Below, in pieces: positions 13,067 to 38,527 of a stretch of DNA of 41,704 nt (within the stretch, counting starts at the first letter, position 1; every line of letters starts with the position of its first letter). The notes under the pieces are model-generated. The model saw only the letters and a list, made by a program, of their open reading frames with translations. It was not told where the DNA came from and did no database searches. This DNA comes from a virus. Location of the stretch: the IMG/VR virus record IMGVR_UViG_3300045988_041287, positions 1 to 41,704 of that record. One strand, given 5' to 3'. A program made the translations under genes and the position numbers.

Positions 13067-13139
13067 CCTTATATGTCAATGTTTTCCCAGCTTTTTAGCA
13101 TTATGTTTTCTCATAAAATACTCTGCATTCGCACCCGCA

Positions 13140-13986: not shown

Positions 13987-14035
13987 ACTCTACCTCCGTT
14001 TCGTGCGGGGCGGCTTGTGCCGCCCCTTTTGTGTG

Positions 14036-14584: not shown

Positions 14585-14683
14585 TGCTCATACCTCCTTT
14601 TGTGTAGTAAGCCGTTCGGCTTCTACCGTCAGTATGCGCTTTTCCTTTTTTCGATGTGCCTCACTTGTGCATCACCTCCGCTC

Positions 14684-14720
14684 AAAAAAAGACCGTGCAT
14701 TTCTGCACGGTCTTTTCTCT
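14684..14720 (-). terminator. Rho-independent terminator after the lysis/sigma-like genes
   Basis: Stem gaccgtgca/tgcacggtc, loop tttc. On the minus strand it is followed by TTTTTTT; a T-run also follows on the plus strand. Confidence 0.8.
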
Positions 14721-14722
14721 GT

Positions 14723-14968
14723 TCAGTTCAGCAGTCTCGACGTTCTCTGCATCCTTCTCAAGATGTCCGGCAGCCGCCTTTGCACCGTCGCGCGCCCCAG
14801 ATACAGTTCCGTCGCCACATCCACCTGCGGCAGCTTGTCCACATAATAGAGCCTTGCGATCTGCGTATCCTCTCTGCCAAGATTCGCCTCGCGGATCACG
14901 GTCTCCATGCCCTGCCGGGTCATGCGCTCCAGCTCCGGCGGCATCGTAATTCTGGCGCGTGGCGACAT
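14723..14968 (-). CDS. Sigma-70 region-4-like HTH protein (putative transcription regulator)
   Basis: LGREDTQIARLYYVDKLPQVDVATELYLGRATVQRRLPDIL resembles sigma region 4.2. Confidence 0.55.
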   Translation of the reverse strand: MSPRARITMPPELERMTRQGMETVIREANLGREDTQIARLYYVDKLPQVDVATELYLGRATVQRRLPDILRRMQRTSRLLN

Positions 14969-14972
14969 CCCA

Positions 14973-15629
14973 TCACTTCCTTTTCAGCGTCGCAATATTC
15001 CCCTGAAAGCCGACCTCCAGATCCAACGCCTTTGCAACGTCTCGAATCTTCACATAGTTCGTGCCGTTCTTGAGGATGCGGTTGACCTCGACCTTCTTTC
15101 CATCGACGATCATATAGCTCTTTTCGACCACCTCGCCCACCTCCTCTACCTGTCTGCGGAATTTTGCCAGCCCGTCATTCCCGACCCAGTACGCCGGGCA
15201 CTTCTTGCCCATCACATCATAGTGCCGGATGATGTGGTCATACGGGATGCCGTACTGCTTGCAAAGCTGGTACACCAGCTCCGCCGCGTTTGCGATGGTC
15301 TTGTCTGTCGCCATCACGCGCCCGTCCCGCTTCGCGTCGCACAGCTCCACGCCGATAGAATTTGCATTCCGGCAATAGGGATGCTTATACGTCCGCGCCC
15401 CGCAGTGATAGGCAACGTAGTCATCCGGCACGCTGCGCGTGATGGAATCGTCGTCCACAAAATAGTGCGCCGATGCGACGGGATTCAGCGGGTTTTGAAA
15501 ATACCGAGCATTGCTCTCGTCAGAATCCCCATCGTTGGCGGTGTAGTGCATGACGATCCACTCGATCGTCTGCGTGCGCTTCCCGCCGTAATTGCTGCGG
15601 TGCGCGAGCTGCGTTTTGATCTGCACCAT
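14973..15629 (-). CDS. Endolysin: N-acetylmuramoyl-L-alanine amidase (Amidase_2/PGRP) with a C-terminal binding domain
   Basis: WIVMHYTANDGD...ASAHYFVDDDSI...AYHCGA...NSIGVELC. The C-terminus MIVDGKKVEVNRILKNGTNYVKIRDVAKALDLEV resembles a copper-amine-oxidase-N-type domain. Confidence 0.9.
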   Translation of the reverse strand: MVQIKTQLAHRSNYGGKRTQTIEWIVMHYTANDGDSDESNARYFQNPLNPVASAHYFVDDDSITRSVPDDYVAYHCGARTYKHPYCRNANSIGVELCDAKRDGRVMATDKTIANAAELVYQLCKQYGIPYDHIIRHYDVMGKKCPAYWVGNDGLAKFRRQVEEVGEVVEKSYMIVDGKKVEVNRILKNGTNYVKIRDVAKALDLEVGFQGNIATLKRK

Positions 15630-16831: not shown

Positions 16832-18247
16832 TTAATTTGCACTCCCTCCACCTTGCGCGATACCCACAATATGATCCGCATATGTCGCCCAGTTGGTCGC
16901 CGCTTTCCATTCATCCACAAGCCTAGCCGGAACTTGGATTTCACAATTTGCATTGATGTTTGTGAACGCGTTGGCGTTCGCCAATGTCGGCACAGCGGCG
17001 CAGTGGGTGAAGTTGTACCAAAGAACGCCTTGACAGTTTGCAAAGGCGCTTGCACCAACGCTCGTGATGCCTGCCGGAAAGTCTATCCTGATGAGGGAAT
17101 AGCAGGTCGAGGCGAAGTTGTTCGGAATTGTCGTGATTCCGTTTCCGATAACAAGTTTTTGTGCCGTCATGCAGGTATCGAAGGTATAGTCGGATAGGCT
17201 CGTCACCGCATCGGGGATGATGATCTCGTCGATGCTCTGGCAATTTGTCATCGCATATCTTAAGATTTCGGTGACACTGCTCGGGAAGGTGATATGCGGC
17301 AGTGAGTTGCTGTTGCGGAGCAAAAATCCGCCGATCTTTGTTACCCCGTTAGGGATGGAGATCGTCCGCAAACTATAGTTTGCGTAAAAGGACGACGCCT
17401 CGCTGATCGTGCAGCCCTTCGGCACGATGAATGCCTTGAGCGAACCACATGATTCAAACGTATTTGCGCCGACACTGGTCACGCTAGTCGGAACGGTAAT
17501 CGTTCTAAGCTGCCCGCACTGGATGAAACCATATGTGCCGAGCCTGCTGACGTTCTTTCCAATCTCCACTCGTTTGAGTACGCTCATGACGGCGCGCTTT
17601 GCCGTACCATACGGGCCGAGCACATTGCGTACAGATGCGTTTCTGCCGAGCGTCAGCGTGCAGCCGTCTGCCACCGCAAGCGTGATGATGTGATCGCCTG
17701 CCGTAAACTGGTGCGTGGTCTGAATCTCGCCCGTACCGGCAAAGGTCTGTGGCGCGCTGCCGTCCCCCCAATCCACGGTCACGCCGTTTGCAACGGTCTG
17801 CAAAAAGCAAAGCGGAATAGTCCCTGTGCTCACCACGTCCGGGATGGTGATGTACAGCCTTGTTTTTCCGTCATCCGTGATGTAGTTCAGCCCGACTTGC
17901 ACCTTGCGATTGAGCGATTTGATCTCCGCAAGCGTCCAGTTCCAGCCCTGACAGGTCAGCCCCGTGCGTGTCGGCAGGTCCGGCAGCGCCGTCTTGCCCG
18001 CCAGCTCGTCCAAAGACCACGCATATAGTAATGTCCCGTCATAATCGTAAAAGTTGATGTCCGCCTCCGCAGGCGGCTCAGATGGCGTGCCGCCAGTCTG
18101 AATGTTCTCGATCGCCGCCACAAACCCGTCAGGGTAGATAAGTTGCTCGGATGTGCCGCCCTTCGCGCGAATGGCATTTGCGACCTTTGTCAGGTCAGTG
18201 TTGTCGGTCAGATATTCAATGATGGGGGAAGGTTCAGGTGCTGCCAT
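16832..18247 (-). CDS. BspA-type leucine-rich-repeat protein (putative receptor-binding protein)
   Basis: Repeated ~23-aa units such as ...TSVGANTFESCGSLKAFIVP..., ...IGGFLLRNSNSLPHITFP... and ...TSVGASAFANCQGV... are typical of LRR_5. Confidence 0.75.
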   Translation of the reverse strand: MAAPEPSPIIEYLTDNTDLTKVANAIRAKGGTSEQLIYPDGFVAAIENIQTGGTPSEPPAEADINFYDYDGTLLYAWSLDELAGKTALPDLPTRTGLTCQGWNWTLAEIKSLNRKVQVGLNYITDDGKTRLYITIPDVVSTGTIPLCFLQTVANGVTVDWGDGSAPQTFAGTGEIQTTHQFTAGDHIITLAVADGCTLTLGRNASVRNVLGPYGTAKRAVMSVLKRVEIGKNVSRLGTYGFIQCGQLRTITVPTSVTSVGANTFESCGSLKAFIVPKGCTISEASSFYANYSLRTISIPNGVTKIGGFLLRNSNSLPHITFPSSVTEILRYAMTNCQSIDEIIIPDAVTSLSDYTFDTCMTAQKLVIGNGITTIPNNFASTCYSLIRIDFPAGITSVGASAFANCQGVLWYNFTHCAAVPTLANANAFTNINANCEIQVPARLVDEWKAATNWATYADHIVGIAQGGGSAN

Positions 18248-19800
18248 CAGAATGCACCTCCATTCGCATTATCGACCGCAGCCGCCGCCCACGCGCCGCT
18301 TACCACCCGCAGGAATTTCCCGTTGTCGGCGGCGGTCACATCCGGCAGAAACGGCACATCTGCCGCAAGGTCGGCTTTGGCGACCTTGGACTTAAATGCC
18401 AGGCTGCCGAGGTCGGCGAGCCACTTTGCGATTTTCCCGAACAGCACCGAGAGTTTTTCGCCCGTCGCGATATTCGTCCGTGAATCCGCCGCCGTGAATG
18501 CCGCCGTCACGTTCGACCCGTTGCCGGTGGGCGATAGTTTTTTGCTTGCTGTCAAAACCGCACTTCTTGCATACTTCTCCGCCGCCGCCGCTGTCGACGC
18601 CGCAGCAGTTGCCGCATCCATCGCCGCGCCCGCCTGTTCGTCCGCATACGCAAAAATGTCCTGCGCCTTGCCCTGCGGGTCGTACACCGCAGCGGTCATA
18701 TCACCGCCGCTGCCAGCGCCGCCATCCTCACCGTCCAGAATCTCAAAGCTGTGCTCGCCTGTCGCGTCCGTCACCGTCACGGTCGTCACCTTGCCGCTCT
18801 TGGACGTCGTGATCGTCGGGGACACGCCGTTTTCTCCTGGCGCACCGTCCGCGCCGGGGTCGCCTTTATCACCCTTCGCGCCGGGGTCACCCTTTGCGCC
18901 GGGGTCGCCTTTATCGCCCTTTTCTCCGGGATCACCCTTTGAACCGGGGTCGCCGGTGTCGCCTTTGTCACCCTTTGCGCCCGGCGCACCGTCCGCGCCG
19001 TTGGTTACCTCAAAATCAGCCGTCGTGCCGTCCGTAAAAGTGATCGTGTAGGTATCCGTCGTGCCCGCCGCGTGCGTGCCGCTCTTGAGCGTGATGGACG
19101 TGATCCCGCGCCCGTCTGCGCCCTTGTCACCCTTGCTCCCCTTGATGTTGCACACTCTGACCCATTCCGGCACGCCGGTGCTCGCGTTTGCACGAAATTG
19201 CCACACATCCGCCGTGGACGTATCGAGATACAAATCGGTCTCGTCCGCTGCGACAACGCCTTGCGGTCTCCCGCTCCCGACGTGCCACACGCTGCCGTGC
19301 TCACCGACCATCGAACAGATACGCGACCATGACGCGACCCCGTCGGACACCTCTGTGCAGATCGCCACGTCTCCCGGATAAAACGGACCGTTGCGGTACT
19401 TGACGATCCAGAGGTCATTGACCAGTACCGTATTGCCCATCTGATCCGGCATCCTATCCGTGTACCAGATACGATTCCCTCGCTCGCCGGCGTCGCCTTT
19501 GTCACCCTTCGCGCCCGGCGCACCAGTCTCGCCCTGAGCGCCCGTGTCGCCCTTGTCTCCCTTTTCTCCCGGAGGTCCTACCGCGCTGCCAAGATCCAGC
19601 ACAGTATTGTCCGTCAGCGTCAGCAGCAGGTGTCCGTTCTCGTCGATCTCCGCCGCCTTCACCCCGCGCGAAACATACCCGTTGAGCAGCGGCTTGAGCG
19701 CCCCGTTTTCCACATTCCCCGCGAGCGTCGGCGTCAGCTCTCCGTTCTGGATATACCCGTTGAGCTTCAGCACCACCTCCGGCGGAAATTCATATCTCAC
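18247..19800 (-). CDS. Collagen-like (Gly-X-Y) tail fibre protein
   Basis: Two GXY tracts: GPPGEKGDKGDTGAQGETGAPGAKGDKGDAGERG, and GADGAPGAKGDKGDTGDPGSKGDPGEKGDKGDPGAKGDPGAKGDKGDPGADGAPGENG. Confidence 0.8.
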   Translation of the reverse strand: MRYEFPPEVVLKLNGYIQNGELTPTLAGNVENGALKPLLNGYVSRGVKAAEIDENGHLLLTLTDNTVLDLGSAVGPPGEKGDKGDTGAQGETGAPGAKGDKGDAGERGNRIWYTDRMPDQMGNTVLVNDLWIVKYRNGPFYPGDVAICTEVSDGVASWSRICSMVGEHGSVWHVGSGRPQGVVAADETDLYLDTSTADVWQFRANASTGVPEWVRVCNIKGSKGDKGADGRGITSITLKSGTHAAGTTDTYTITFTDGTTADFEVTNGADGAPGAKGDKGDTGDPGSKGDPGEKGDKGDPGAKGDPGAKGDKGDPGADGAPGENGVSPTITTSKSGKVTTVTVTDATGEHSFEILDGEDGGAGSGGDMTAAVYDPQGKAQDIFAYADEQAGAAMDAATAAASTAAAAEKYARSAVLTASKKLSPTGNGSNVTAAFTAADSRTNIATGEKLSVLFGKIAKWLADLGSLAFKSKVAKADLAADVPFLPDVTAADNGKFLRVVSGAWAAAAVDNANGGAF

Positions 19801-20190: not shown

Positions 20191-20226
20191 ATTGTATCAG
20201 CCTCCGGCGGCAAATCTCTAGTGCAC
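20191..20226 (-). promoter_or_regulatory. Copy 2 of the GTGCACTAGAGA-N18-TAnnnT motif (candidate internal late promoter)
   Basis: Minus strand: GTGCACTAGAGA (20226-20215), 18 nt, then TACAAT (20196-20191). Located in the gap between the giant ORF stop and the next RBS. Confidence 0.5.
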
Positions 20227-23200
20227 TACTGTGCCCATTCGTCGATTTTTTCCAGAGCCTTTTTGCGATCCTTTCCCAGCATTGCATACACCGTCGCCAG
20301 ATGTGCCCGCAGATCAATGCGCTCCCGCTCGCTCGCCTCCCGGAAGTCCTGCCGGCACAGTGCCGTGATCGCCTGGCTGATCTCGCCGTTTGTGTAGCCT
20401 GCCTTCTTCAGCTCCCGCACCACCTGTGTCACATTCTTCCCGGTCATCGCCGCCTCGCGCAGGCTCTTACCCTGCTCCGTCCACGGCTCAAAGCCCGTCA
20501 GCTTGTAGCTTTCTCCGGCAATGGCGTCCTTCTGCTCCGGCGTAAAGTCGTAGCTGTCCAATAAATCGTACAGCTCCGACTTTTTGCTCCCGCTCACCGT
20601 GTTCCCCTCTGCGTCCTTCCAGCCGTCCGCGCCCGGCAGCGCCTGCCGGTACTCCAGATACGCGCCCACGTCCGCGTTCTCGTTCAGAAGCCTTTGGAGC
20701 ATTGCCTGCTCCTTTTCGCTCGCGATCACATTGTAGTAATACATCGCCTTTGCCTCGTCTGCGATGTCGTATGCGTTCAGCGCCGCCAGCTTCGCTTCCC
20801 TCTCGCTTGCGCCCTCCGGCACGTCCACGTCCTTCATCGCCTGGATGAGCTTCCACGCCTCGCGCTGCTTCACGTCTGCCGCGCTCATCGCGAGGTACGC
20901 GTTCGTCTCCTTCATATTCAGATTTGAAAAATCGTTGTCCACCCACTTCTTTGCCTCGCTCGTCGCGGTCTTCCCGGCGATGCTTACCTTGATCGTGTTG
21001 AGGATCTTGTCTCCCGTCGTTTCGTTGAACACCGGGTACTGCATGAGCAGCTCGCCGTCCTTGTTTTTCTTAAAGCTCCCGCCCTGCACCACGGCGTAAA
21101 TGCCCTGCGCCGTTTTCTTTACCGCACCGCCGCCAAGCGGAGCAAACAGATACGTTACGGGCTTTGCTACCTCTGCCCCGATCTTCTCCCACCGAACGTC
21201 GTTTGCCATGTCCTTGTCCGTTGCAGCGTTGATGATGGTCAGAACATTCGGGATAGCCTGCGTCACGGGCAGCCGTCCGCCGTCCAGATCGTCTGTAACG
21301 AGTGCCAGCACCTGCGTCCCCGGCACATCGTCCAGTATCGCCTCGCCCAGCCCCGTCAGCGCAGCACTCAGCCGCTTCTTGTTGGTCGTCTCGATCCACT
21401 CTCCGTCCCGTCCGTGAATAAATTCCTCCGTCGCTGCGTCAAAGATATTACCCAGCCGCTTCCCGGTCGTATCACCCACAAAGTCGTTTGCCATGTTGAT
21501 CGGGTCTGGCAGCACACGCCCGCCGAATATGCTCTCGAACGCTTCATTGAACAGCCACGCATAAATGCAGTATTTCAGCAGCCTCCATGCGTATTCCGCC
21601 ACAAATCTGCTATTGCTCCAGTCTGGATGATCCTTGCTCATGTAATAGGCTGTGTCCTTGAACACGTTGCGCGGCAGGTTGTTCACCTCAAGCTGGAACT
21701 GCGTCAGCATCTTTGTAAACGGGTTCTTTGATTCGTAGCGCGTCGGCATTTCGCCCTTGCTGCGTGCCGCCATCACGTCCGCCGCGTACTGGTCCGCCTC
21801 GTCCATCGCATCGACCTCGTTCAGCCCCCGCCGCAGGTTGTCGTTATAGCGCACGCGCACGACTGCCTCAGCCGTGAAGTTGTCCACAACGTTCATTACC
21901 GCCCCGGCTGCGTCGCTGATTTTCCCCATGCGTCCATTTACAAGCGGATCGCTGCCCCGTCGGTTCGTCAGGAACGCGCTGCGCTCCACGATCCCGTCCC
22001 GGTCTCTCACGTTTCGGACTGTCTGCCACATCGCCGCGAACGTCTGCAAGCCGCCGTGCTGCATTGCTGTCTGCACCAGCGGTGCAAAGTTCGTCGCCGC
22101 TGACCTCAGGTTGAGCGCGACCATATTCGCGCCGACCCGACCGATGGTTTTCTGCATCACATTGTAGATTTTTCGTCCGTGGTCTCGCTCCATGTCCCGG
22201 TCTGTCCGGCTCTTCTTGCCCGCCAAAAGGTTTGTGTACTCCTCCAGTTCGTTCACATACCCGCTCAGTTGGAACTTTGCCTTCTCCAGAATTTCCTCGA
22301 CCTTCTTGTCCCGCTCATACTGGCTCAACTCCGTGTCGGCTCGTATTGCATCGACCTGCTGCTGAACGCCCTCCGATGACGCCATATAGCGTATCTCCGA
22401 TGCCAGCGCCCGCAGTCTCTGGATATTGTCCGTCTGATAGATCACGCTCGCCGCGCCCTCTATGTATCGGTCAAAGCCTTCCACCGCGTCATACGCTGTG
22501 TTGAAGCCCAGGCGTTCCTCTGCGTTGCCGAAATACTTGATGCCCGGTCGGAACATATACGTCCTGCCCGCGATCGTAGTCGGCAGCTCCGTCACATCCC
22601 CGTTCACACCCAAAGCGTTTGCCACCATTGCCAGAATGCCGTCCGTCTGCCCCGGCTGGAAGTGCGGGAAGTATCCGCTTCTTCTCGGCACTGGCTCGTA
22701 GCCGTTTTCAATGCGCTTTCGGTTCATGGCTTCCAGCGTTTCGTCGTAGATTTTTCGGAACTCCGCCACGGCGCTTTCGATCTTCGTCTTGTCAAGGCTC
22801 GGACTTGTTTTCCACAGCTCGCGTACCACGGCTTCCCACTCGGCAAGCGTCTTTCCATCCCGCTTTGCATCCATCGGCTTCTTCTTGAGCATTTCGATGT
22901 TGTTCATCGCCTCGCCGTAGAGCTGCACCGCGTGCGCCTCGCTCACAAGGTCGCCCGTCCGCTTCTCGCGGCTCATATTCATTGCCTTCACGCGCCCGCG
23001 CATCTCGTTCTTAAACCGCGTCGCCTTCGCCTCGTCCCGGCGTACCTGTGCAAAGTAGTCGTTGTTGATACGCTCCGCATCCTCCCGTGCGAACACATCC
23101 CGCGTGTTGCGCGTCATCGTTTCCCGCTGCAGGAAGAAGCCCTTCTTGTCCTTCGTGCTCTCGATATTCGTCAGGTGCTCACGGGCATACTCGCGGTTCT

Positions 23201-26200
23201 TCTCCCGCGCGCTTCTCCGCCAGCGCTCCATCGGCACACGCAGTGCGTCGTAGTCCGACTTTGCCTGATATACATCCAGAATGCTTCGCGCGTTGTCCAT
23301 ATCCTGCACAGCCTCCGGCGCAATCTCGCCGCGCAGCAGCCGCCACACGACCCTCTCGTCCTCGTCGGTCAGCAGGTTTCTGTTCTTCACCCGCTCGTAG
23401 TTCTTCCGCGCCTTGCGCAGGTCCTCTCCCAGCTTCAGCGCTTCCTCTTCGCTCTGCGGGGTGTACTGCATCACCTTTCTGCGCTCCGCCGCCTCAACGT
23501 ATCGGCGCACCGTCCGCATCACCGACGTCATATTCTCTACTGAACGTTCAAAGTCATTCTTCGCCCACCGCTTATAGTCCCCGCCGTCGCCCTTGTGCGC
23601 CTCGTCCAGCGTCTGCTTCGTGATCTGGATCTTGTTCGCCACCTCGATCATGCGCATCAGCTGATCCGCCGGGTTCATGATTGCCTCCGGGAACAGCCCC
23701 GGCGCTTCGTCGTGGAGTTCTCCGTACAGCGTGTCGATGCCGATGCCCTCGTTGTTGAGTAATATCCTCCCGCGCACCGCCCGCCGGAACTGCTCAAGGT
23801 CTGCAAACTCCGCCCGCACCTCCGGCGTCACCCGGATGCCCGTCTTGAGCAGCTTGACCTTGATATGCTTGAACGTGTCGTAGAACTCGCGGTCCTCCTC
23901 AATGCCAGCGTCGTAGGCGTCCTCAAAGCTCTCGTTGATCGTCTCCTGCGCGATCTTGCCGGTTTTCAGGAACTCGTTCATCATGCCCTGCACGGCAGGC
24001 TTCAGCACCTCGCGCTTTGCCTTGCCCGGAATGCTCATCGCGTTCGCCGCCTGCCGCACCGCGCTGTTCACCGCCTGATCCACAAACGCCCGCGCCTTCC
24101 CCGGCAGCTTGTCGTAGCTGTACACCTTCGGCTTCTCTCCCGTCTCCGAAGCCTCCCCTTGGTGACCAAGGGGAGGTGGCGCGGAGCGACGGAGGGGATC
24201 AGAGCTTCCCCCGTTCTGCTCTTCCGCCACGTTTGCTTCCGCGTTTGCATCCCGCGTCTCCGGCGAATATTTCCCCTTGACATTTTCCTCTACACTCTGT
24301 ACAATGTCCCCAAGTCGATAGTTTTCTGCGCGCCCGGCCTTGTAGCCAAAACCGTTCAGAAAGCTGTCGGCTTTTTTGTCGTCGTAGATCCGCAGTTCCT
24401 TTCCCTCTTTGATCTGATTCGCGATCCACTCTTTCGGATTGTCCAGACCGTAAATGCTCTTGATACGCGTTACCGTTTCACCGTCAAGCTCTGCGTCTTT
24501 CAGTACACCCACCAGCAGCGGCTTTCCGTCCCCGTCGATCTCATCGGTCAGCACCCCTACAGAGTTTCCGATCTCAAAGCTCAAGACCGGCTGCTGCATG
24601 ATGGATTCCAGATTGTTGAACACACGCTGCGGCACATTGTGCTTTTCGCTCTTTGACTTCTTGTAGGTCGTCTGCGACATCACGAGCGGCTGCCCGGTGA
24701 TACCGAGCGCATCATATTCCCTCGCCAGTGTTCCGAAATAGAACTCGTCATGCTTGGTCAGTCCATTCGCGCGATACTGCTTGAATTGCTCCTTTACGCT
24801 TTCTCCGCGTGTATTGTTGATACTGTACGCCTCCGGCGGACCTCTGGTCTGTGCCGGTTTTTTTGTGCGCTGGCTCGCCGCGCGGTCTGCTTCTGTGCGC
24901 ACGCGCTCCTGGAGCTTGTCCGCGCCCAAGCCCATGCGGTTGATCCCCGCGTAGGCGTCGCACACGATCTCGTCCAGATACGCGCTCATGTCCTCGCCTG
25001 TGTAGCAGCCCTCGTATGCCTCGCAGTATTTCCGCGCCAGCTTATCCCGCTGCTCCCGCGAAAGCCCCAGCGCGTCGATCAGGCGCTCCCGCAGCCCCGG
25101 TTCTGCTTCCAGCCGCAGGTGCATCGCCTCGTGCTCGGCGGTCTTGATAACGCCGTCCTTCGCGTCGATGGTGAGCCATACGGTCGTTCCCTGTGTAACG
25201 CCCTGTACGCTCATCTCTCTGCCGCCTGCGGTCCTGATCCTGATCGACCCGCTCACAAGACGCACGTCGTCCGCGCCCGCATCGGTAAGGATTTGCTTCG
25301 CCTGCTTGAGGGCGGGATATTCCTGCACCGTCTCCTCCGGCACGCGGTAGAACATTTTCTGATCCGAGCCGTTTTCGATCCCGTCCGCCTTTGGGCTTAA
25401 CCGTTCCGCTTTCGCAGTGCCGAGGACACTTTGGATTCTAAGGCTTTCCTTGACGCCGAATCCGCCTGCGGATTCTTTCTCTGCTCCTCCTGCGCCTCTG
25501 CCCACGCGTCCAGACGGCTCATCGGAATCCATACCTGCATCCCGTTCGCCGCCGTTACCAATACCCGCTGTTCCATTTTCTTCTCCTTTCCGCCTGCCTT
25601 CCTTGTAGGCTTCCTGCAATACCTCGTCCGCAATGCCCCTCTGAGAATCCTCCCGCTTGAATTTCCAGCCGAACCGTCCCTTCCCGTAGGCGACACGCAC
25701 CGCCTCTGCATACGTCGGGATGTCCATCTGCACGCGGTCGTTTGCATCAAAATACCCGGAGATAAAGTATTGCGTCATCGCAAAGCCGTATTCGCGCTGC
25801 TTTGCGATCCGCTCCAGCTCCGCCGCGTCCTGCTCCTCTGCCGCTCTCCTTGCCGCAAGCTCGGCGGCGCTCTCCTGCGCCTGTGCGGACTGCTCTGTCT
25901 CGCGCAGCTCCTTGTCGGATAGGGTCTGCGTCTCGCGTCCCATCTCCTTCTGCTGCCGCTCGTTCTCCAGCCGCGCCCGCGCAACGTTCGCCACGTCCTG
26001 CATATCCCGCTCCTTCGCTTCCAGATATGCCTCGTCCTGCGCGATCTGCTCCCGCAGCTCCTGCACCCGCGCATTTATGGCTTCCCCTTTGGGGGAAGCT
26101 GTCGGCGCAGCCGACTGATGAGGGGCAGCGTTGTCGGCTGCAGCCGTTACCGCGTTTGCTTCCAGCCCCCGCAGCTCCGCCGTCCGCGCATCGTACTCCT

Positions 26201-28514
26201 TTAGCCGAGCCTTATACTCGCGCAGCGTGTCCCCGACCTTGCCGAGCAGCTTGTCGCCCTTCACGCGCCCGCGTACATCCTCCTGCCCCGCCTGCCGCAA
26301 GACCGTCCGCACCTCCGGCTCGTTGTTTGCACTCTCCAAAGCCTCCCCTTGGTGACCAAGGGGAGGTGGCGCGGAGCGCCGGAAGGGATCAGAACTACCC
26401 CCGTTCTGAGCTGCCGCCACGTCTGCCTCCAGCTCCATATTGTCCGGCAGCCCGTCCCCGTCCTCGTCGATCACGTCCATATTGGACGGAATGTCGTCCT
26501 CCACGTCCATATTCTCCGGCACGTCGCTCTCGCTTGCTTCCCGCTGTACCTCCTCCACGGTCCTCTCCGCCGCGTCGCTCTCTCCGGCTTTGTCCAGCGC
26601 GTCGATCAAGCGCCCGAAATCCTGCATATCCGGCGCGCGTCCGTATGCCAGCTTGTCGCTGATCGTATCGCGCGCCGCCTGGACGTCCGCGTTTGTGCTG
26701 CCGTCCGTCTCCCGGATCAGGATCTTCGCGTACTGCTTCATGTATCGGTCCTGCCGTGCCTGTGACAGCCCGCTCACCATCCCGGCAGCATCGCCCAGCA
26801 CGCCGACGAATACGCCGCCGAGGAATGACATCCCAAGGTCCTCCGCCGTCACTGACCCCTCCAGCGTCCCGTCCAGCACTAGGCTCTGGAACGTCGGCTC
26901 AAGCAGCTCCGCCACGACCTCCTCCAGACCCTCCGATACCAGCCCGAACGCCTTGCTGTCCAGCACCCGCAGGAGCGTCTTATTTTTCAGCTTCGCCGCC
27001 GCCCGGTTGATAAGACCCACGTCCTCGTCATACACCGGGTTTCCGCCGAACAGCTTTTCGGAGAATACTTCCACGGCGGCGTTCTCCAAGCCGATCAAAA
27101 TCGCCTCGCCGTCCGTCGCCCCTGCATTCTTCGCATCCACCGCCGCGTTGCCGCCCGCTCTGGACGCCATGGACGTCAGGGTGGATAGATTCGTCGTCTC
27201 CTTCATCGGATTCACGCCGCTCATCCCGGCAAGCCCCGCGTCCAAAAGCATCGACCCGACCGACGGCAGGTTCTCCACCACGAACTTCCCGACGTCGCTT
27301 CTGTCCTTCGTCGCCCGCTCCATAATGCGGCTGTACTCGTCCTGCCATGCCTGCGCGCCCGACCAGTCGATGTCTGTCGCCAGCTTGTCCGCCAGAGCGT
27401 TCAGGCTGTCCCGGTACGCCTGCCCGAAAATGCCGCCCAGCACCTTGCTCTTTGCAAGGTCACGCAGCGCCCACGCCGCCGCCTTGTTGATTCCTGCTTC
27501 CGCGACCGCGTGCGTCGCCTCCTGACCGCCCAGCCACGACGCCGAGCTGCCGCTGATGAACGCATCCGCCGCCGCCTCGCCAAAGCCCACATAGTCCCCC
27601 GTGAGCTTTGGATTTTTCAGCAGCGCCCGGAAGTCCGAAAGGTCCTTGCCGGTCACGCCCATCTCGTCGAACCTCTGCCGCAGCGCGTCCTTTTCCTCCC
27701 GGTCCTCGTCAGCGTCCAGTTCAAAATAGCGCGCCACGTCCTCCCGAATGCCCAGATTGTCCAGTCTGGCGTTCTGTGCCTGATAGCGCGTCTGCTCGTC
27801 TGTGGTGGTCGTTACGCCGTTCAGATAGTTTTGATACGTCCCGTATTTCTTCTGCATGGCAGTGGAGCGGTTGAACTCCTGCTCCGTTACCTTGCCTTCC
27901 CGCTGCGCCTGTTCCTGCTTCGCTCGGCGCGCATTTTCCATCGCCTCGTCGTACCCGGCGTACACGCCGCGCAAATAGTTCTGGTAGCTGCCGTATTTCT
28001 GCTGCATCGCCGTGGAGCGGTTAAATTCCTGTTCCGATACCTTGTCCGAGGAAAACCTGCCTCGCGGCGTTGTGTCCTGCTTCTGCCCCAGCTCTGCCCG
28101 GTACTGCTCCTCCGTCGTCCCGCGCATCGCCCTGTACCGCTGCTGCGTGATGCTGTCCACCGCCGCCTTGTACTGCTCAAACGTCACCCCGCCCTGCGCC
28201 TTGTAGCGCGAGAGCGTCGGGCTGTATGTCCCCCGTGCAGCGCTTGGCTCTCCCTCTGGGATAGCTGTCCGCCCGCCGGATGTGTACGTTTTGACCCACG
28301 GCGTGCTTGTGCCCCGCCCATCCTGTTCCTTGGCGGTTTTCATGATGGCGGTCCAGTCAAAGCGCCCCGCCTGCTCTGTCTGCTGCTGTCGCTGGGTATA
28401 CGGCTCTACCGCCCGGCTGCCGGAGCTGTTGCCGTAAAGCGCCTGATTGTCGCTTCTGCGCGCCCGCTCCATCACCTGCTTCCAGTTGATATTGCTTTCT
28501 GTTTTCTTCGCCAT
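20226..28514 (-). CDS. Giant (2,762 aa) polyvalent-type virion/ejection protein
   Basis: A single uninterrupted ORF. Contains HEAMH (HExxH, nt 25119-25133), a MuF-C/PBECR-like segment (KHNVPQRVFNNLESIMQQPVLSF...), internal duplications and long helical regions. No tail tube or sheath genes are nearby. Confidence 0.8.
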   Translation of the reverse strand: MAKKTESNINWKQVMERARRSDNQALYGNSSGSRAVEPYTQRQQQTEQAGRFDWTAIMKTAKEQDGRGTSTPWVKTYTSGGRTAIPEGEPSAARGTYSPTLSRYKAQGGVTFEQYKAAVDSITQQRYRAMRGTTEEQYRAELGQKQDTTPRGRFSSDKVSEQEFNRSTAMQQKYGSYQNYLRGVYAGYDEAMENARRAKQEQAQREGKVTEQEFNRSTAMQKKYGTYQNYLNGVTTTTDEQTRYQAQNARLDNLGIREDVARYFELDADEDREEKDALRQRFDEMGVTGKDLSDFRALLKNPKLTGDYVGFGEAAADAFISGSSASWLGGQEATHAVAEAGINKAAAWALRDLAKSKVLGGIFGQAYRDSLNALADKLATDIDWSGAQAWQDEYSRIMERATKDRSDVGKFVVENLPSVGSMLLDAGLAGMSGVNPMKETTNLSTLTSMASRAGGNAAVDAKNAGATDGEAILIGLENAAVEVFSEKLFGGNPVYDEDVGLINRAAAKLKNKTLLRVLDSKAFGLVSEGLEEVVAELLEPTFQSLVLDGTLEGSVTAEDLGMSFLGGVFVGVLGDAAGMVSGLSQARQDRYMKQYAKILIRETDGSTNADVQAARDTISDKLAYGRAPDMQDFGRLIDALDKAGESDAAERTVEEVQREASESDVPENMDVEDDIPSNMDVIDEDGDGLPDNMELEADVAAAQNGGSSDPFRRSAPPPLGHQGEALESANNEPEVRTVLRQAGQEDVRGRVKGDKLLGKVGDTLREYKARLKEYDARTAELRGLEANAVTAAADNAAPHQSAAPTASPKGEAINARVQELREQIAQDEAYLEAKERDMQDVANVARARLENERQQKEMGRETQTLSDKELRETEQSAQAQESAAELAARRAAEEQDAAELERIAKQREYGFAMTQYFISGYFDANDRVQMDIPTYAEAVRVAYGKGRFGWKFKREDSQRGIADEVLQEAYKEGRRKGEENGTAGIGNGGERDAGMDSDEPSGRVGRGAGGAEKESAGGFGVKESLRIQSVLGTAKAERLSPKADGIENGSDQKMFYRVPEETVQEYPALKQAKQILTDAGADDVRLVSGSIRIRTAGGREMSVQGVTQGTTVWLTIDAKDGVIKTAEHEAMHLRLEAEPGLRERLIDALGLSREQRDKLARKYCEAYEGCYTGEDMSAYLDEIVCDAYAGINRMGLGADKLQERVRTEADRAASQRTKKPAQTRGPPEAYSINNTRGESVKEQFKQYRANGLTKHDEFYFGTLAREYDALGITGQPLVMSQTTYKKSKSEKHNVPQRVFNNLESIMQQPVLSFEIGNSVGVLTDEIDGDGKPLLVGVLKDAELDGETVTRIKSIYGLDNPKEWIANQIKEGKELRIYDDKKADSFLNGFGYKAGRAENYRLGDIVQSVEENVKGKYSPETRDANAEANVAEEQNGGSSDPLRRSAPPPLGHQGEASETGEKPKVYSYDKLPGKARAFVDQAVNSAVRQAANAMSIPGKAKREVLKPAVQGMMNEFLKTGKIAQETINESFEDAYDAGIEEDREFYDTFKHIKVKLLKTGIRVTPEVRAEFADLEQFRRAVRGRILLNNEGIGIDTLYGELHDEAPGLFPEAIMNPADQLMRMIEVANKIQITKQTLDEAHKGDGGDYKRWAKNDFERSVENMTSVMRTVRRYVEAAERRKVMQYTPQSEEEALKLGEDLRKARKNYERVKNRNLLTDEDERVVWRLLRGEIAPEAVQDMDNARSILDVYQAKSDYDALRVPMERWRRSAREKNREYAREHLTNIESTKDKKGFFLQRETMTRNTRDVFAREDAERINNDYFAQVRRDEAKATRFKNEMRGRVKAMNMSREKRTGDLVSEAHAVQLYGEAMNNIEMLKKKPMDAKRDGKTLAEWEAVVRELWKTSPSLDKTKIESAVAEFRKIYDETLEAMNRKRIENGYEPVPRRSGYFPHFQPGQTDGILAMVANALGVNGDVTELPTTIAGRTYMFRPGIKYFGNAEERLGFNTAYDAVEGFDRYIEGAASVIYQTDNIQRLRALASEIRYMASSEGVQQQVDAIRADTELSQYERDKKVEEILEKAKFQLSGYVNELEEYTNLLAGKKSRTDRDMERDHGRKIYNVMQKTIGRVGANMVALNLRSAATNFAPLVQTAMQHGGLQTFAAMWQTVRNVRDRDGIVERSAFLTNRRGSDPLVNGRMGKISDAAGAVMNVVDNFTAEAVVRVRYNDNLRRGLNEVDAMDEADQYAADVMAARSKGEMPTRYESKNPFTKMLTQFQLEVNNLPRNVFKDTAYYMSKDHPDWSNSRFVAEYAWRLLKYCIYAWLFNEAFESIFGGRVLPDPINMANDFVGDTTGKRLGNIFDAATEEFIHGRDGEWIETTNKKRLSAALTGLGEAILDDVPGTQVLALVTDDLDGGRLPVTQAIPNVLTIINAATDKDMANDVRWEKIGAEVAKPVTYLFAPLGGGAVKKTAQGIYAVVQGGSFKKNKDGELLMQYPVFNETTGDKILNTIKVSIAGKTATSEAKKWVDNDFSNLNMKETNAYLAMSAADVKQREAWKLIQAMKDVDVPEGASEREAKLAALNAYDIADEAKAMYYYNVIASEKEQAMLQRLLNENADVGAYLEYRQALPGADGWKDAEGNTVSGSKKSELYDLLDSYDFTPEQKDAIAGESYKLTGFEPWTEQGKSLREAAMTGKNVTQVVRELKKAGYTNGEISQAITALCRQDFREASERERIDLRAHLATVYAMLGKDRKKALEKIDEWAQ
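21400..21571. repeat. Source region in the giant gene for the 76-bp methyltransferase insert
   Basis: 21400-21459 and 21556-21571 match 5256-5331. This region encodes ...KYCIYAWLFNEAF...GNIFDAATEEFIHGRDGE. Confidence 0.85.
24149..24248. repeat. GC-rich hairpin element (B-type) in frame in the giant gene
   Basis: cctccccttggtgaccaaggggagg and ggcgcggagcg(a)cc hairpins, ending in ccgcgtttgc. Translated as ANAEANVAEEQNGGSSDPLRRSAPPPLGHQGEASE. Confidence 0.85.
26079..26159. repeat. GC-rich hairpin element (A-type variant) in frame in the giant gene
   Basis: gcttcccctttgggggaagc and gtcggcgcagccgac hairpins (compensatory changes relative to 6455/7809), then tgatgagggg ... cgcgtttgc. Translated as ANAVTAAADNAAPHQSAAPTASPKGEA. 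Confidence 0.8.
26339..26430. repeat. GC-rich hairpin element (B-type) in frame in the giant gene
   Basis: About 89% identical to 24149-24240. Translated as EADVAAAQNGGSSDPFRRSAPPPLGHQGEALE. Confidence 0.85.
27811..28045. repeat. Internal ~85-bp duplication in the giant gene, two copies about 150 bp apart
   Basis: Encodes KV(S/T)EQEFNRSTAMQ(Q/K)KYG(S/T)YQNYL twice. Confidence 0.8.
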
Positions 28515-36027: not shown

Positions 36028-36174
36028 GCTATCACCGCACCCACGGCTTCCCCCTTGAGGGGGAAGCTGTCCGCGCAGCGCCCGCACCATCTCTTGCCTT
36101 CCCCTTGGGGGGAAGGTGGCGCGAAGCGCCGGATGAGGGGAAGGGTTGCTGTCTCTGCCCTGCCCCGCGTTTGC
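36028..36174. repeat. Composite intergenic hairpin element (an A-type unit nested in a B-type unit) abutting the prp stop codon
   Basis: 36028-36041 plus 36089-36174 parallel 38432-38527. The extra 47 bp at 36042-36088 carries ggcttcccccttgagggggaagc and ends in a second copy of CCGCACC; the two CCGCACC copies are at 36035-36041 and 36082-36088. Confidence 0.8.
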
Positions 36175-36485
36175 TACTCCCTCGCAAACCGCACATTCTG
36201 TGGATACTCATGCGCCACCATCTGCATCCCCAGCAGTGCCGTGTCCCACATCGCCCGCACCACCCGCTCATGCTTCGGCGCGCACGCAATGGTGATGTCT
36301 CCGGGCTGCATATCCACCACCGGCTCTGCCCGCAGCAGCCCCTCGCTTTCCGCTCTCAGGATCATCCCACCCAGCGCGTAGGAGAGGATCGTCACCGCCG
36401 CGCAGACAATGTCCTGCCCCGCCGGAGCGTATCCCGCGTGCCCTGTGATCCGCAGGCTGTAGCCTTTACACTGGATGCTTATCAT
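36174..36485 (-). CDS. prp: Prp-family (DUF464, ribosomal-processing) cysteine protease homologue
   Basis: MISIQCKGYSLRITGHAGYAPAGQDIVCAAVTIL matches the hallmark GHA......G.DIVCAAVS. Confidence 0.75.
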   Translation of the reverse strand: MISIQCKGYSLRITGHAGYAPAGQDIVCAAVTILSYALGGMILRAESEGLLRAEPVVDMQPGDITIACAPKHERVVRAMWDTALLGMQMVAHEYPQNVRFARE

Positions 36486-38413: not shown

Positions 38414-38431
38414 ATCTCCCCGTGTGGGGAG

Positions 38432-38527
38432 CTATCGCCGCACCCCTTGCCTTCCCCTCGGGGGGAAGGTGGCGCGAAGCGCCGGATGAGGGGAAGCGTC
38501 GTTGTTTCTGATCTGTTCCGCGTTTGC
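38432..38527. repeat. Intergenic hairpin element (B-type) abutting the terL stop codon
   Basis: ccttcccctcggggggaagg and ggcgcgaagcgcc hairpins, then ggatgagggg ... ccgcgtttgc, ending at the TAG of terL. Confidence 0.85.

What the first reader, a model, noticed from the sequence alone, without database searches (positions are those of the whole stretch)
24149..26430. Three GC-rich double-hairpin elements inserted in frame inside the giant virion gene
Three elements lie inside the giant gene: two B-type copies (24149-24248 and 26339-26430, about 89% identical) and one A-type variant (26079-26159). Each consists of a perfect hairpin (for example cctccccttgg-tga-ccaaggggagg), a second short hairpin (ggcgc-gga-gcgcc, or gtcggc-gca-gccgac), a (c)tgatgagggg or ggatc segment, and a conserved end, c(g/a)cgt(t/c)tgc. 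None interrupts the 2,762-codon ORF. They translate as ...QNGGSSDP(L/F)RRSAPPPLGHQGEA... and ...PHQSAAPTASPKGEA.... Stem differences between copies are compensatory (c:g versus t:a), which suggests selection on nucleic-acid structure rather than on the peptide. This resembles the Rickettsia palindromic elements, which colonise ORFs in frame, but here it occurs in a phage of a Gram-positive host.
Basis: partly seen in the sequence, partly recalled or inferred. Interest (0 to 1): 0.72.

Follow-up and report, generated by a model that had tools for sequence, protein, structure and literature searches.

The report
Triplex-type DNA repeats inside phage genes
The three segments in the giant gene are copies of a widespread DNA repeat whose purine-rich strand could fold into a hairpin-plus-triple-helix, a hairpin-bridged variant of the E. 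coli BoxC/PIT repeats; here it sits in frame at domain junctions of phage genes, where close relatives differ by swaps, nested insertions and cassette exchange.

Summary
The window, a complete 41.6-kb phage-like genome, holds 7 complete and 2 truncated copies of one repeat, all in one orientation. Three are in frame in the 2,762-codon gene.

The structure is more than a double hairpin. The strand antisense to the genes reads: pyrimidine arm, loop, purine arm, T, a mini-hairpin usually closed by a C(GNA)G loop, then a purine box. That box is the mirror image of the purine arm.

The mirror relation holds across about 20 sub-families (G↔G, A↔A/T, C↔T). This is the code of a class II purine-motif intrastrand triplex, as in E. 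coli BoxC/PIT/TMECO repeats. The difference here is a hairpin in the second loop.

The family is very abundant in Oscillospiraceae and other phyla, and in gut phage contigs. In phages it has a strong orientation bias (53:4) and is often inside ORFs at domain linkers.

Close relatives show type swaps at the same site, nested insertions, a split gene and cassette boundaries at the elements.

It is not an RPE. Triplex formation and the mobility mechanism remain inferred. I rate it a new variant of a known kind.

The parts
24149..24248 (+). B1 unit inside the giant gene. Core 24152-24202: Y arm CCTCCCCTTGG, loop TGA, R arm CCAAGGGGAGG, T, HP2 GGCGC-GGA-GCGAC, mirror box GGAGGGGAT. The tail has two GCAAACG(C/T)G boxes on the - strand (24228-24236, 24240-24248).
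   Evidence: (9 consecutive purine-motif triplets). Homology to relative L017 is perfect through the unit plus about 25 nt and then stops at a swapped domain cassette.
26339..26430 (+). B2 unit inside the giant gene. Core 26342-26392; box GGAAGGGAT, 8/11 triplets.
   Evidence: L017 has an 83-nt extra block beside it and a 75-nt hairpin repeat nested inside its R arm. L252 has another sub-type here that splits the gene.
26079..26159 (+). A3 unit inside the giant gene. Core 26080-26125: GCTTCCCC-TTTG-GGGGAAGC-T-GTCGGC-GCA-GCCGAC-TGATGAGGGG. Tail ends CGCGTTTGC.
   Evidence: It was the only part of 4.5 kb of the gene that matched GenBank phage records.
6463..6547 (+). A1 unit, in frame in the 3D-domain ORF 6020..6775 (-), between the N-terminal hydrophobic segment and the 3D domain.
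   Evidence: L249 has a B-type unit at the same site and L250 has an unrelated linker.
7817..7899 (+). A2 unit, in frame in the C-terminal extension of the 144-aa Cys/His-rich ORF 7746..8180 (-).
   Evidence: L242 and L243 have a B-like unit at the same site in another frame; L244-L247 lack it.
36096..36174 (+). C1 unit, intergenic. Its tail box overlaps the TAG stop of ORF 36174..36485 (-).
   Evidence: Homology to L069 breaks exactly at the outer edge of HP1.
38450..38527 (+). C2 unit, intergenic. Its tail box overlaps the TAG stop of ORF 38527..39879 (-). It lies upstream of the start of ORF 36482..38413 (-).
36046..36079 (+). Truncated A-type head (HP1, T and part of HP2) next to C1.
   Evidence: (D9, D20). 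Absent from relative L069.
38417..38436 (+). Lone hairpin CTCCCC-GTGT-GGGGAG next to C2, a truncated head.
   Evidence: (D20).
20226..28514 (-). Giant ORF (2762 aa) with a MuF_C domain at aa 1285-1383. It hosts B1, A3 and B2 at module junctions.

Best explanation
What it is. The segments are solo copies of a short (about 85-100 bp), non-coding, GC-rich repeat family. On one strand (the + strand here, antisense to all genes) each unit reads: pyrimidine arm, a 3-4 nt loop, the complementary purine arm, one T, a mini-hairpin usually capped by a C(GNA)G triloop, and a second purine block that is the mirror image of the purine arm. A 35-40 nt tail with a weak third hairpin follows.

That order (Y, R, R') and the base code (G with G-C, A or T with A-T, T at the C-G inversion) are those of a class II purine-motif intrastrand DNA triplex. 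This is the design of the E. coli BoxC/PIT/TMECO repeats. The difference is that the second loop here is a structured hairpin rather than 3 nt.

How it most likely works.
- Shown: as duplex DNA the unit is simply transcribed. When it lies in an ORF it is read as a roughly 30-residue Pro/Ser/Ala/Gly-rich linker, in whichever frame it happens to be.
- Inferred: when the purine strand becomes single-stranded (replication, repair, recombination), it can fold into a hairpin-triplex. This would stall polymerases and provoke slippage, template switching, breaks and gene conversion between copies.
- Shown: the sites are hot spots of change between near-identical phages. They show replacement of one sub-type by another at the same site, nested insertion of other small hairpin repeats, loss or truncation, and homology breaks or domain-cassette swaps at the unit's edge.
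- Shown, with an inferred cause: solo units are almost always oriented with the purine strand as the transcription template. The likely cause is that purine-rich runs in the coding strand favour R-loops and transcription blockage and carry TGA stops, so the other orientation is purged.
- Unknown: how copies reach new sites. Possibilities are recombination with host copies or an unidentified ssDNA-acting enzyme.
For: Architecture and code:
- All 7 complete copies give 7-9 triplets with at most one mismatch or one bulged base.
- The architecture is found at 7 sites on one strand and 0 in 60 shuffles.
- Across 28 distinct purine arms from all loci, the box is the mirror of the arm. The mean score is 6.29/8, with 15 perfect and 5 at 7/8. 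Re-paired boxes score 4.24 +/- 0.25 (maximum 5.18 in 2000) and the direct register scores 3.57. The position next to the linker co-varies C with T (10 cases) and G with G (10 cases).
- T opposite A-T pairs occurs 18 times and A 31 times. T fits the purine motif on this strand but not the pyrimidine motif on the mRNA strand.
- GNA triloops or GNRA-type loops lie on the same strand in about two thirds of arms.

Known class:
- PMC4666352 describes TMECO as CCCTCNCCC-N3-6-GGGNGAGGG-N3-GGGNGAGGG. It forms a stable triplex as ssDNA in vitro, occurs solo or in inverted pairs of two different types, and its loci are hypervariable.
- Here full units likewise pair an A arm with an inverted C arm. In Proteobacteria and Myxococcales a hairpin-loop arm is paired with a short-loop, TMECO-like arm, for example with a TTA second loop.

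Not a peptide:
- Frames and sub-types differ at the same site.
- Distant orthologues lack the unit.

Instability at the sites.

Orientation: 53 antisense against 4 sense independent phage sites (p = 6e-12) and 13 against 4 in genomes. [quoted passage not shown]

Linker placement: after the Amidase_2 domain in L111, before the 3D domain, and at cassette junctions in the giant gene.
Against: - No experiment here shows that a triplex forms. For TMECO itself, the paper found no triplex signal in duplex DNA or by in vivo DMS footprinting.
- The A and C sub-types need one mismatch or one bulged A.
- The sub-families share ancestry, so the roughly 20 arm-box combinations are not fully independent events.
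- The mirror relation could serve recognition by a protein rather than a triplex.
- The strong orientation bias relative to genes is unlike E. coli TMECO, which shows no bias, and could instead point to a function in the mRNA.
- No transposase, target-site duplication or clean empty site was found, so insertion of the triplex units themselves is inferred from absence in distant orthologues and from type replacement. Clean presence/absence between near-identical flanks was seen only for the nested repeats.
- The link to cassette shuffling rests on a handful of junctions.
Confidence: 0.6

Rival explanations
1. An RNA-level element. The mRNA-sense strand (pyrimidine box, HP2', A, pyrimidine arm, loop, purine arm) folds in the transcript as hairpins, or as a class IV pyrimidine-motif RNA triple helix. 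It would act as an mRNA stabiliser, processing site or translation modulator between genes. Copies in ORFs would be tolerated by-products.
For: - Very strong orientation bias relative to the coding strand.
- Both intergenic copies in the window start exactly at the upstream stop codon and lie upstream of the next gene's ribosome-binding site.
- Many intergenic phage copies show the same layout.
- For the B type the pyrimidine motif is perfect (CCCCUCC over GGGGAGG).
- PMC4666352 notes that pyrimidine-type intrastrand triplexes can form in RNA.
Against: - Wherever the box carries T opposite an A-T pair (18 of 49 A positions), and at the C-G inversion (10 of 10), the mRNA-strand triplex would be mismatched while the DNA purine motif is satisfied.
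- Runs of C+ need acid pH.
- Stable GNA and GNRA loops are on the antisense strand.
- No Rfam family matches.
- PIT elements showed no promoter or terminator activity, according to the summary in PMC4666352.
- About a third of callable phage sites are inside ORFs.
- HP1 is not followed by a U-run.
Confidence: 0.2
2. A conventional miniature mobile element (MITE, REPIN or RPE-like) mobilised in trans by a host transposase. The hairpins would be the enzyme's recognition sites, and the mirror box would be incidental or part of protein recognition. ORF copies would be insertions that survived because they keep the frame.
For: - Huge copy number and very wide taxonomic spread with conserved ends.
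- Solo units and inverted doublets, as with REP and REPIN.
- Nested insertions of 81-83 and 75 nt between more than 95% identical flanks.
- Absence from distant orthologues.
- A genuine GTAG-plus-hairpin, REP-like unit lies next to A1 and next to B2 in L017.
Against: - No target-site duplications were seen at unit ends (inspection).
- No pair of arms flanks a transposase-sized segment; all tail-to-tail spacings are at most 148 nt.
- The triplex units lack the GTAG signature of REPs.
- A mirror repeat is not what dimeric DNA-binding proteins recognise, yet it co-varies tightly.
- Type replacement at the same site looks more like conversion or recombination than random transposition.
Confidence: 0.15
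3. Functional protein linkers or ancestral peptide repeats. The roughly 30-residue segments would be selected as flexible or cleavable linkers of the giant protein, and the DNA hairpins would be a side effect.
For: - All in-ORF copies sit at domain junctions and translate to Pro/Ser/Ala/Gly-rich low-complexity peptides.
- The ORFs stay open.
Against: - Different frames give unrelated peptides from the same DNA unit: QNGGSSDPLRRSAPPPLGHQGEA, QNGEVLIPSDAANAAPPPRGHQGEA and ASGEALIPSGASSASSTWSPRGA.
- A and B types swap at one site.
- The same units are intergenic in this genome and in bacteria.
- One variant splits the gene.
- Distant orthologues lack them.
Confidence: 0.03
4. Template-strand DNA-hairpin promoters for a virion-delivered RNA polymerase, as in phage N4. 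The giant virion protein would be the polymerase.
For: - Hairpins with 3-nt purine-containing loops lie on the template strand, in one orientation.
- The genome encodes a giant protein.
- The N4 analogy is from memory only.
Against: - The same units are abundant in bacterial chromosomes of many phyla.
- They lie inside ORFs and directly after stop codons.
- The giant protein shows only a MuF_C domain and no polymerase domain.
- Its relatives are mosaic multi-domain proteins.
Confidence: 0.02

Closest known systems
E. coli BoxC repeats = potential intrastrand triplex (PIT) elements (Hoyne et al. 2000) = TMECO (Holder et al. 2015, PMC4666352)
   Same: - Three blocks on one strand in the order pyrimidine, purine, purine-mirror (class II purine motif).
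- G.G-C and A/T.A-T code over 8-9 positions, with at most one mismatch.
- A first loop of 3-6 nt.
- Multi-copy, occurring as solo units or as inverted pairs that combine two different types.
- Loci that vary between close relatives.
- Short-loop, TMECO-like arms occur as the inverted partners of hairpin-loop arms in Proteobacteria and Myxococcales.
   Different: - The second loop is T plus a 13-25 nt mini-hairpin (C(GNA)G loop) rather than 3 nt. Published searches, with loops of at most 6 or at most 10 nt, would miss it.
- The arm sequences differ (GGGGGAAGG, GGGGAGG and others).
- There is a 35-40 nt tail with a third hairpin.
- It is found in Oscillospiraceae and many other phyla, and abundantly in phage contigs. 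TMECO was reported as absent from phages, plasmids and transposons.
- It is often inside ORFs, whereas TMECO is always intergenic.
- It has a strong orientation bias, whereas TMECO has none.
Rickettsia palindromic elements (RPE)
   Same: Short, non-autonomous, structured repeats that reside in frame inside protein-coding genes and add peptide segments, and that are also found between genes.
   Different: - Unrelated hosts, and judging from memory unrelated sequences.
- RPEs are described as whole-length palindromes. These are a series of hairpins with a mirror purine block.
- These units vary in frame and are swapped between types at one site.
REP / BIME / REPIN elements and their RAYT transposases
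   Same: Short GC-rich hairpin repeats, solo or in inverted doublets, very many per genome, mostly between genes in operons, and associated with local variability.
   Different: - No GT(A/G)G tetranucleotide next to the palindrome in the triplex units.
- Three hairpins plus a mirror box rather than one imperfect palindrome.
- No RAYT link was tested.
- A separate 26-nt unit in this window (6435-6460, GTAG + GGGCGGAC-GCCTCT-GTCCGCCC) does fit the REP signature.
H-DNA-forming homopurine/homopyrimidine mirror repeats
   Same: A mirror-repeated purine tract, purine-motif triplet code, and links to polymerase stalling, R-loops and genome instability.
   Different: H-DNA forms from one long duplex mirror repeat under supercoiling. 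Here the acceptor duplex is a hairpin made by an inverted repeat on a single strand, so single-stranded DNA (or cruciform extrusion) is needed.

Membership tests
BoxC / PIT / TMECO class II purine-motif intrastrand-triplex repeats | Three blocks on one strand in the order 5' pyrimidine, purine, purine; the third block is the mirror of the second. | tested here: met
   All 7 complete copies. 7 sites against 0 in shuffles. Mirror score 6.29/8 against 4.24 re-paired and 3.57 direct register over 28 distinct arms.
BoxC / PIT / TMECO class II purine-motif intrastrand-triplex repeats | Triplet code G.G-C, A.A-T and T.A-T over at least 8 positions with at most one mismatch. | tested here: met
   7/8 to 9/11 per copy, or 8/8 for the A3, C1 and C2 copies with one bulged A. 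A positions pair with A (31) or T (18); C pairs with T 10 of 10 times.
BoxC / PIT / TMECO class II purine-motif intrastrand-triplex repeats | Short loops: first 3-6 nt; second 3 nt in TMECO (at most 6 nt in ITxF, at most 10 nt in Hoyne et al.). | tested here: not met
   The first loop is 3-4 nt, which is met. The second loop is T plus a 13-17 nt hairpin in the window and up to about 25 nt elsewhere.
BoxC / PIT / TMECO class II purine-motif intrastrand-triplex repeats | Consensus CCCTCNCCC...GGGNGAGGG...GGGNGAGGG. | tested here: not met
   The window arms are GCTTCCCCC/GGGGGAAGC, CCTTCCCC/GGGGAAGG and CCTCCCC/GGGGAGG. A C arm found no blastn match in E. coli complete genomes. TMECO-like arms do occur as partners in L162 and L209.
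BoxC / PIT / TMECO class II purine-motif intrastrand-triplex repeats | Occurs solo or as inverted pairs that combine two different types. | tested here: met
   Full units are an A arm plus an inverted C arm in L001-L003, L011, L020, L037, L079 and others. All window copies are solo.
BoxC / PIT / TMECO class II purine-motif intrastrand-triplex repeats | Always intergenic, no strand-orientation bias, not on phages, plasmids or transposons (as reported for E. coli). | tested here: not met
   5 of the 7 window copies are in ORFs. 7 of 20 callable phage sites are in ORFs. Orientation is 53:4. More than 118 viral contig stretches carry the arm.
BoxC / PIT / TMECO class II purine-motif intrastrand-triplex repeats | Loci hypervariable between close relatives. 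| tested here: met
   Type swaps, nested insertions, truncation, homology breaks at unit edges and a split gene. This is qualitative; no matched control sites were scored.
BoxC / PIT / TMECO class II purine-motif intrastrand-triplex repeats | The isolated strand forms a stable triplex in vitro (CD, NMR, melting). | not testable with these tools
   ViennaRNA models only Watson-Crick hairpins.
Rickettsia palindromic elements (RPE) | In-frame residence inside ORFs, adding a peptide segment. | tested here: met
Rickettsia palindromic elements (RPE) | Membership of the RPE sequence families, restricted to Rickettsia. | not tested
The organisms carrying this repeat are Oscillospiraceae and many other phyla.
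REP / REPIN (RAYT-associated) | A conserved GT(A/G)G tetranucleotide flanking a 20-40 nt imperfect palindrome. | tested here: not met
   Absent from the triplex units. Present only in the separate small unit at 6435-6460 and its copy in L017.
REP / REPIN (RAYT-associated) | Association with a RAYT (Y1 HUH transposase) gene. | not tested
   This needs complete host genomes.
MITE | Terminal inverted repeats with target-site duplications, and a parent IS with the same ends. | tested here: inconclusive
   Inverted arms exist in full units. No target-site duplications were seen by inspection, and no arm pair spans more than 148 nt. Only about 240 loci were sampled.

The most novel reading that the evidence does not exclude
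Hairpin-bridged intrastrand-triplex units may be a pan-bacterial class of ssDNA-structured mobile or recombinogenic elements. The folded hairpin-triplex would itself be the signal that recruits replacement, nested insertion and recombination. In gut phages these units would be tolerated as in-frame linkers and would act as the joints at which domain cassettes of giant multi-domain (MuF-type) virion proteins and lysins are exchanged. That would be a nucleic-acid 'splice site' for protein module shuffling.
Probability: 0.25. Interest if true: 0.8.

Novelty: new variant of a known kind. Interest (0 to 1): 0.62.

Why it matters
BoxC/PIT/TMECO repeats have been known since the 1990s, with no agreed function and no known way of spreading. 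They were reported as intergenic, orientation-neutral and absent from mobile elements.

This window and its relatives change that picture in several ways:
- The same triplex design exists in a hairpin-bridged form that published searches could not find.
- It is spread over many phyla and is common in gut phages.
- It lives inside genes at domain junctions.
- It is strongly oriented relative to transcription.
- It differs between phages that are otherwise more than 95% identical.

That provides a small, tractable system of 42-kb phages with natural filled, swapped, nested and split alleles. It could be used to test whether intrastrand triplexes form in vivo, whether they cause replication or transcription problems, and whether they drive module exchange in phage proteins.

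There is also a practical point. Annotators will see spurious 'linker' peptides and split giant genes at these sites.

Tried and rejected
- Rfam scans of the window and of three loci with full units, at E up to 1, gave no hit on any copy. There are no tRNAs.
- Hammerhead ribozyme idea, prompted by CUGAUGAG after a hairpin. Rejected: there is no GAAA box, the C type has GGAUGA, the box is simply complementary to CCCUCAUC in full units, and there is no Rfam hit.
- K-turn (C/D box), IS5 terminal repeat and integron attC resemblances were considered by eye and dropped, because their defining features are absent.
- A literature search for the sequence strings returned only primers.
- MAFFT plus RNAalifold on 110 arms recovered only part of HP1, because HP2 varies in length. 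I switched to an explicit parser. No covariance model was built.
- A naive stop-to-stop ORF test was confounded by spurious antisense ORFs in GC-rich DNA. It was replaced by a codon-usage likelihood.
- G.T against A.C wobble counts in HP2 (34 against 50) do not indicate a strand. HP1 counts are biased by the search pattern and were not used.
- The first general parser timed out and was rewritten.
- I looked for a clean empty site in the giant gene through P0007 and L252. The site turned out to be a replaced variable block, not a simple insertion.
- I looked for an autonomous parent, meaning arms flanking 1-3 kb. None was found among the sampled loci.
- blastn of a C arm against E. coli genomes and of B1 against GenBank phages gave no match. 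This is weak evidence, because the queries are short.
Full report
**1. What is in the window**

The window has a 75-nt terminal direct repeat (1-75 = 41630-41704). GC skew is uniformly negative. It looks like a complete phage-type genome of about 41.6 kb with nearly all genes on the - strand. The giant ORF 20226..28514 (-, 2762 aa) is real. Its only Pfam hit is a MuF_C domain at residues 1285-1383.

The three segments named in the finding are there:
- B1 and B2 are 90% identical over 98 nt.
- The 11-bp perfect hairpin occurs only at those two places, with none expected by chance.
- The A-type copy is at 26079-26159.
- Every copy ends with C(G/A)CGT(T/C)TGC.
- All three leave the ORF open, with the quoted translations.

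Related copies lie at 6463-6547 and 7817-7899 (A type, each in frame in a smaller - strand ORF). Two more lie at 36096-36174 and 38450-38527 (C type, intergenic). Each C-type copy sits next to a truncated extra head. All copies have the same orientation.

**2. It is a repeat family far beyond this phage**

A blastn search of 4.5 kb of the giant gene against GenBank phages matched only the A-type unit, in three unrelated human-faecal contigs. There the unit is intergenic and 'full length'. An A arm and an inverted C arm are joined tail to tail.

Nearly every hit has the same hairpin architecture. The organisms are mostly Oscillospiraceae and other Clostridia. They also include Roseiarcus, Bradyrhizobium, Xanthomonas, Rhodanobacter, Planctomycetes, Dehalococcoidales, Myxococcales and Barnesiella.

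Solo units predominate in viral contigs: 119 solo against 31 with an inverted partner. In genomes the counts are 90 against 67. All tail-to-tail spacings are at most 148 nt, so no autonomous version was seen. No Rfam family matches.

**3. The structure is more than a double hairpin**

HP2 has 171 different sequences among 281 distinct arms, yet it stays about 88% Watson-Crick paired. Its loop is a C(GNA)G triloop in 149 of 279 arms. A further 38 have a loop called CGCA, which I read as GCA in a shifted register. Several others have GNRA-type tetraloops. All of these loops are on the strand antisense to the genes.

The decisive feature is the purine box after HP2. It is the mirror image (the reverse, not the complement) of HP1's purine arm, and it changes with that arm. 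A parser that fixes neither sequence found 28 distinct purine arms. Examples:
- AAAGGGAGC with TGAGGGAT
- AAAGGGGGG with GGGGGGAT
- AGGAGGAGC with TGAGGTGG
- CGGGAGAGG with GGTGAGGG
- GGGAGAGGG with GGGTGTGG
- TGGGAGAGC with TGAGAGGG

Scored with the purine-motif triplet code (G.G, A.A, T.A, T.C), the results are:
- Mean 6.29/8, with 15 perfect and 5 at 7/8.
- Re-paired boxes score 4.24 +/- 0.25, with a maximum of 5.18 in 2000 trials.
- The direct-register control scores 3.57.
- The position next to the linker shows C with T 10 times and G with G 10 times.

Watson-Crick pairing cannot create a mirror relation. An antiparallel purine-motif triple helix requires exactly this. All seven complete window copies obey the code, with 7-9 triplets and at most one mismatch or one bulged A. 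The whole architecture occurs 7 times on the + strand, never on the - strand, and never in 60 dinucleotide-preserving shuffles. As Watson-Crick hairpins alone the units already fold far better than shuffles, z = -3.8 to -6.4.

**4. Comparison with what is known**

A literature search for intrastrand triplexes found Holder et al. 2015 (PMC4666352). According to that paper, the E. coli BoxC repeat was rediscovered as the PIT element by Hoyne et al. 2000 and renamed TMECO. The paper reports these properties:
- Its sequence is CCCTCNCCC-N3-6-GGGNGAGGG-N3-GGGNGAGGG, a class II purine-motif intrastrand triplex.
- It forms a stable triplex as single-stranded DNA in vitro.
- Triplex formation was not detected in duplex DNA or by in vivo footprinting.
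- It has 23 copies in MG1655. All are intergenic, with no orientation bias.
- It was not found on phages, plasmids or transposons.
- It occurs solo or in five inverted pairs, each combining a type A and a type B unit.
- Its loci are more variable between strains than control loci.
- Earlier tests found no promoter or terminator activity.
- The purine motif cannot form in RNA.

The units here share the block order, the code, the first loop, the solo and paired organisation with two types, and the local variability. They differ in these ways:
- The second loop is T plus a mini-hairpin. Published searches limited loops to at most 6 nt or at most 10 nt and would miss it.
- The arm sequences are different.
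- There is a tail.
- The hosts are different.
- They are present in phages.
- They reside in ORFs.
- They have an orientation bias.

In Myxococcales and Proteobacteria, a hairpin-loop arm is paired in one unit with a short-loop arm. One example is CCCTCCCCC-TGC-GGGGGAGGG-TTA-GGGAGAGG, which has the TTA loop of TMECO type A. This ties the two designs together. I therefore class the finding as a new variant of a known kind, not as a member of TMECO proper.

**5. They are not conserved peptides, and the sites are unstable**

Small Cys/His-rich gene (7746..8180):
- The window has an A unit.
- The nearest relative (L242) has nearly identical flanks but carries a B-like unit at the same site, read in another frame.
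- L243 adds a further small repeat.
- Orthologues at 64-69% identity have no unit; one ends at ...GKNYL*.

3D-domain gene:
- The window and L248 have an A unit plus a small GTAG-type hairpin.
- L249 has a B unit at the same site.
- L250 has an unrelated linker.

Giant gene, B1 junction:
- Relatives carry B.
- One carries B with an internal frame change (QNGEVLIPSDAANAAPPPRGHQGEA).
- One carries an A-type unit.

Giant gene, B2 site:
- L017 has an extra block of about 83 nt beside the unit.
- It also has a 75-nt different hairpin repeat nested inside B2's purine arm. Both additions are in frame.
- L252 has yet another sub-type (GGGAGAGC with TGAGAGGG, again a mirror) whose in-frame TGA splits the gene.

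Homology breaks at unit edges:
- Homology between the window and L017 is perfect through B1 plus about 25 nt. It then stops at a swapped domain cassette, beyond which identity is 95%.
- Homology to L069 breaks exactly at the outer edge of C1's HP1.

In-ORF copies in unrelated phages are read in still other frames and lie between domains. For example, in L111 the copy follows the Amidase_2 domain.

A clean filled-versus-empty pair for a triplex unit itself was not found. The P0007 site is a replaced block.

**6. Orientation**

I used a codon-usage likelihood trained on 27 ORFs of at least 2400 nt to call the coding strand of each flank. Solo units in viral contigs have the purine (arm) strand antisense to the genes in 74 cases and sense in 4.

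After clustering near-duplicate contexts, the counts are 53 against 4 independent sites (p = 6e-12). In genomes they are 13 against 4. Seven of the 20 sites with both flanks callable are inside ORFs.

The bias is unlike E. coli TMECO. The simplest reading is purifying selection. [quoted passage not shown] In addition, the purine strand carries TGA stops (TGATGAGGG), whereas the pyrimidine-rich sense strand is almost free of stops.

The bias is also the main argument for the RNA-level rival. I consider that rival less likely. The box uses T opposite A-T pairs in 18 of 49 cases and T at the C-G inversion in 10 of 10. This fits the DNA purine motif but mismatches an RNA pyrimidine-motif helix. 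The stable GNA loops are also on the other strand.

**7. Mechanism, with its status**

Shown:
- The architecture and its covariation.
- The family's distribution.
- Translation as frame-dependent linkers.
- Site instability between close relatives.
- The orientation bias.

Inferred:
- The purine strand folds into a hairpin-triplex when single-stranded.
- This causes polymerase stalling, slippage, breaks and conversion between copies, which would produce the swaps, nested insertions and cassette boundaries.
- Orientation is set by avoidance of transcription problems.

Unknown:
- How units reach new sites.
- Whether any enzyme recognises them.

**8. Verdict**

The finding is a hairpin-bridged variant of the BoxC/PIT/TMECO intrastrand-triplex repeats. 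It occurs in new settings (gut phages, inside genes, at module junctions) and has a new property (strong orientation bias).

Noticed in passing
window 6435-6460 (+); also L017 about 5430-5460: A separate 26-nt repeat with the classical REP signature: GTAG followed by the hairpin GGGCGGAC-GCCTCT-GTCCGCCC. It lies in frame in the 3D-domain gene (peptide GRTEASAPTGA), next to unit A1. The same unit appears as part of a polymorphic insertion beside B2 in relative L017 and in protein P0003. Similar GTAGGGGCG... hairpins flank triplex units in several Oscillospiraceae genome loci.
   Followed up: partly
L017 about 5480-5555 (site equivalent to window 26366): A third kind of small hairpin repeat (75 nt, core CAGACAGCCC-GGT-GGGCTGTCTG) is nested inside the purine arm of B2 in a relative. 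It is in frame and encodes ...SRYGSVTARDRQPTGLSDNTAPPLRY...
   Followed up: partly
window 36174-36176 and 38527-38529; L069 about 6215: The stop codons of the two genes upstream of the intergenic C units overlap the units' tail box (TAG|CAAACGCGG). In relative L069 the stop is a TAA inside the box (GCAG-TAA-ACGTGG). These ORFs therefore end at or in the repeat.
   Followed up: partly
L252 3520-3680: In a relative contig the giant gene is split into a 769-aa ORF and a following ORF. The split is at the position of the window's B2, caused by an in-frame TGA in a different repeat sub-type. This could be a genuine split gene or a sequencing or assembly error.
   Followed up: partly
window 1-75 and 41630-41704: A perfect 75-nt terminal direct repeat. 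The window is a complete, terminally redundant or circularly assembled genome of 41,629 bp.
   Followed up: no
window 18822-19590 (ORF 18247..19800, - strand): 9-nt-periodic repeats that translate on the - strand as collagen-like Gly-X-Y tracts (for example GAKGDKGDPG). This is probably a tail-fibre-type protein.
   Followed up: no
window 12917-12964 and 13140-13183: Two clusters of the 12-nt direct repeat AAAATGCTAACG, with 3 and 2 copies, about 200 nt apart at the start of the + strand ORF 12926..15073. They lie in the lower-GC part of the genome and look like iterons or operators.
   Followed up: no
window 5250-5315 and 21394-21459: A 66-nt segment repeated at 95% identity between a region near 5.3 kb and the 3' part of the giant gene.
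   Followed up: no
window 27814-27894 and 27964-28044: An 81-nt tandem-type repeat (81% identity) inside the giant gene, encoding the repeated peptide ...KVSEQEFNRSTAMQQKYGSYQNYL... The number of these units varies among relatives (window, P0007, P0008).
   Followed up: partly
window 24266-24823 against P0001-P0006: The domain cassette between the conserved linkers TRGPPE(A/K)YS and KYSPETRDANAE differs completely among otherwise 90-96% identical relatives of the giant protein (MuF_C or other modules). This is module shuffling in a polyvalent-type protein.
   Followed up: partly
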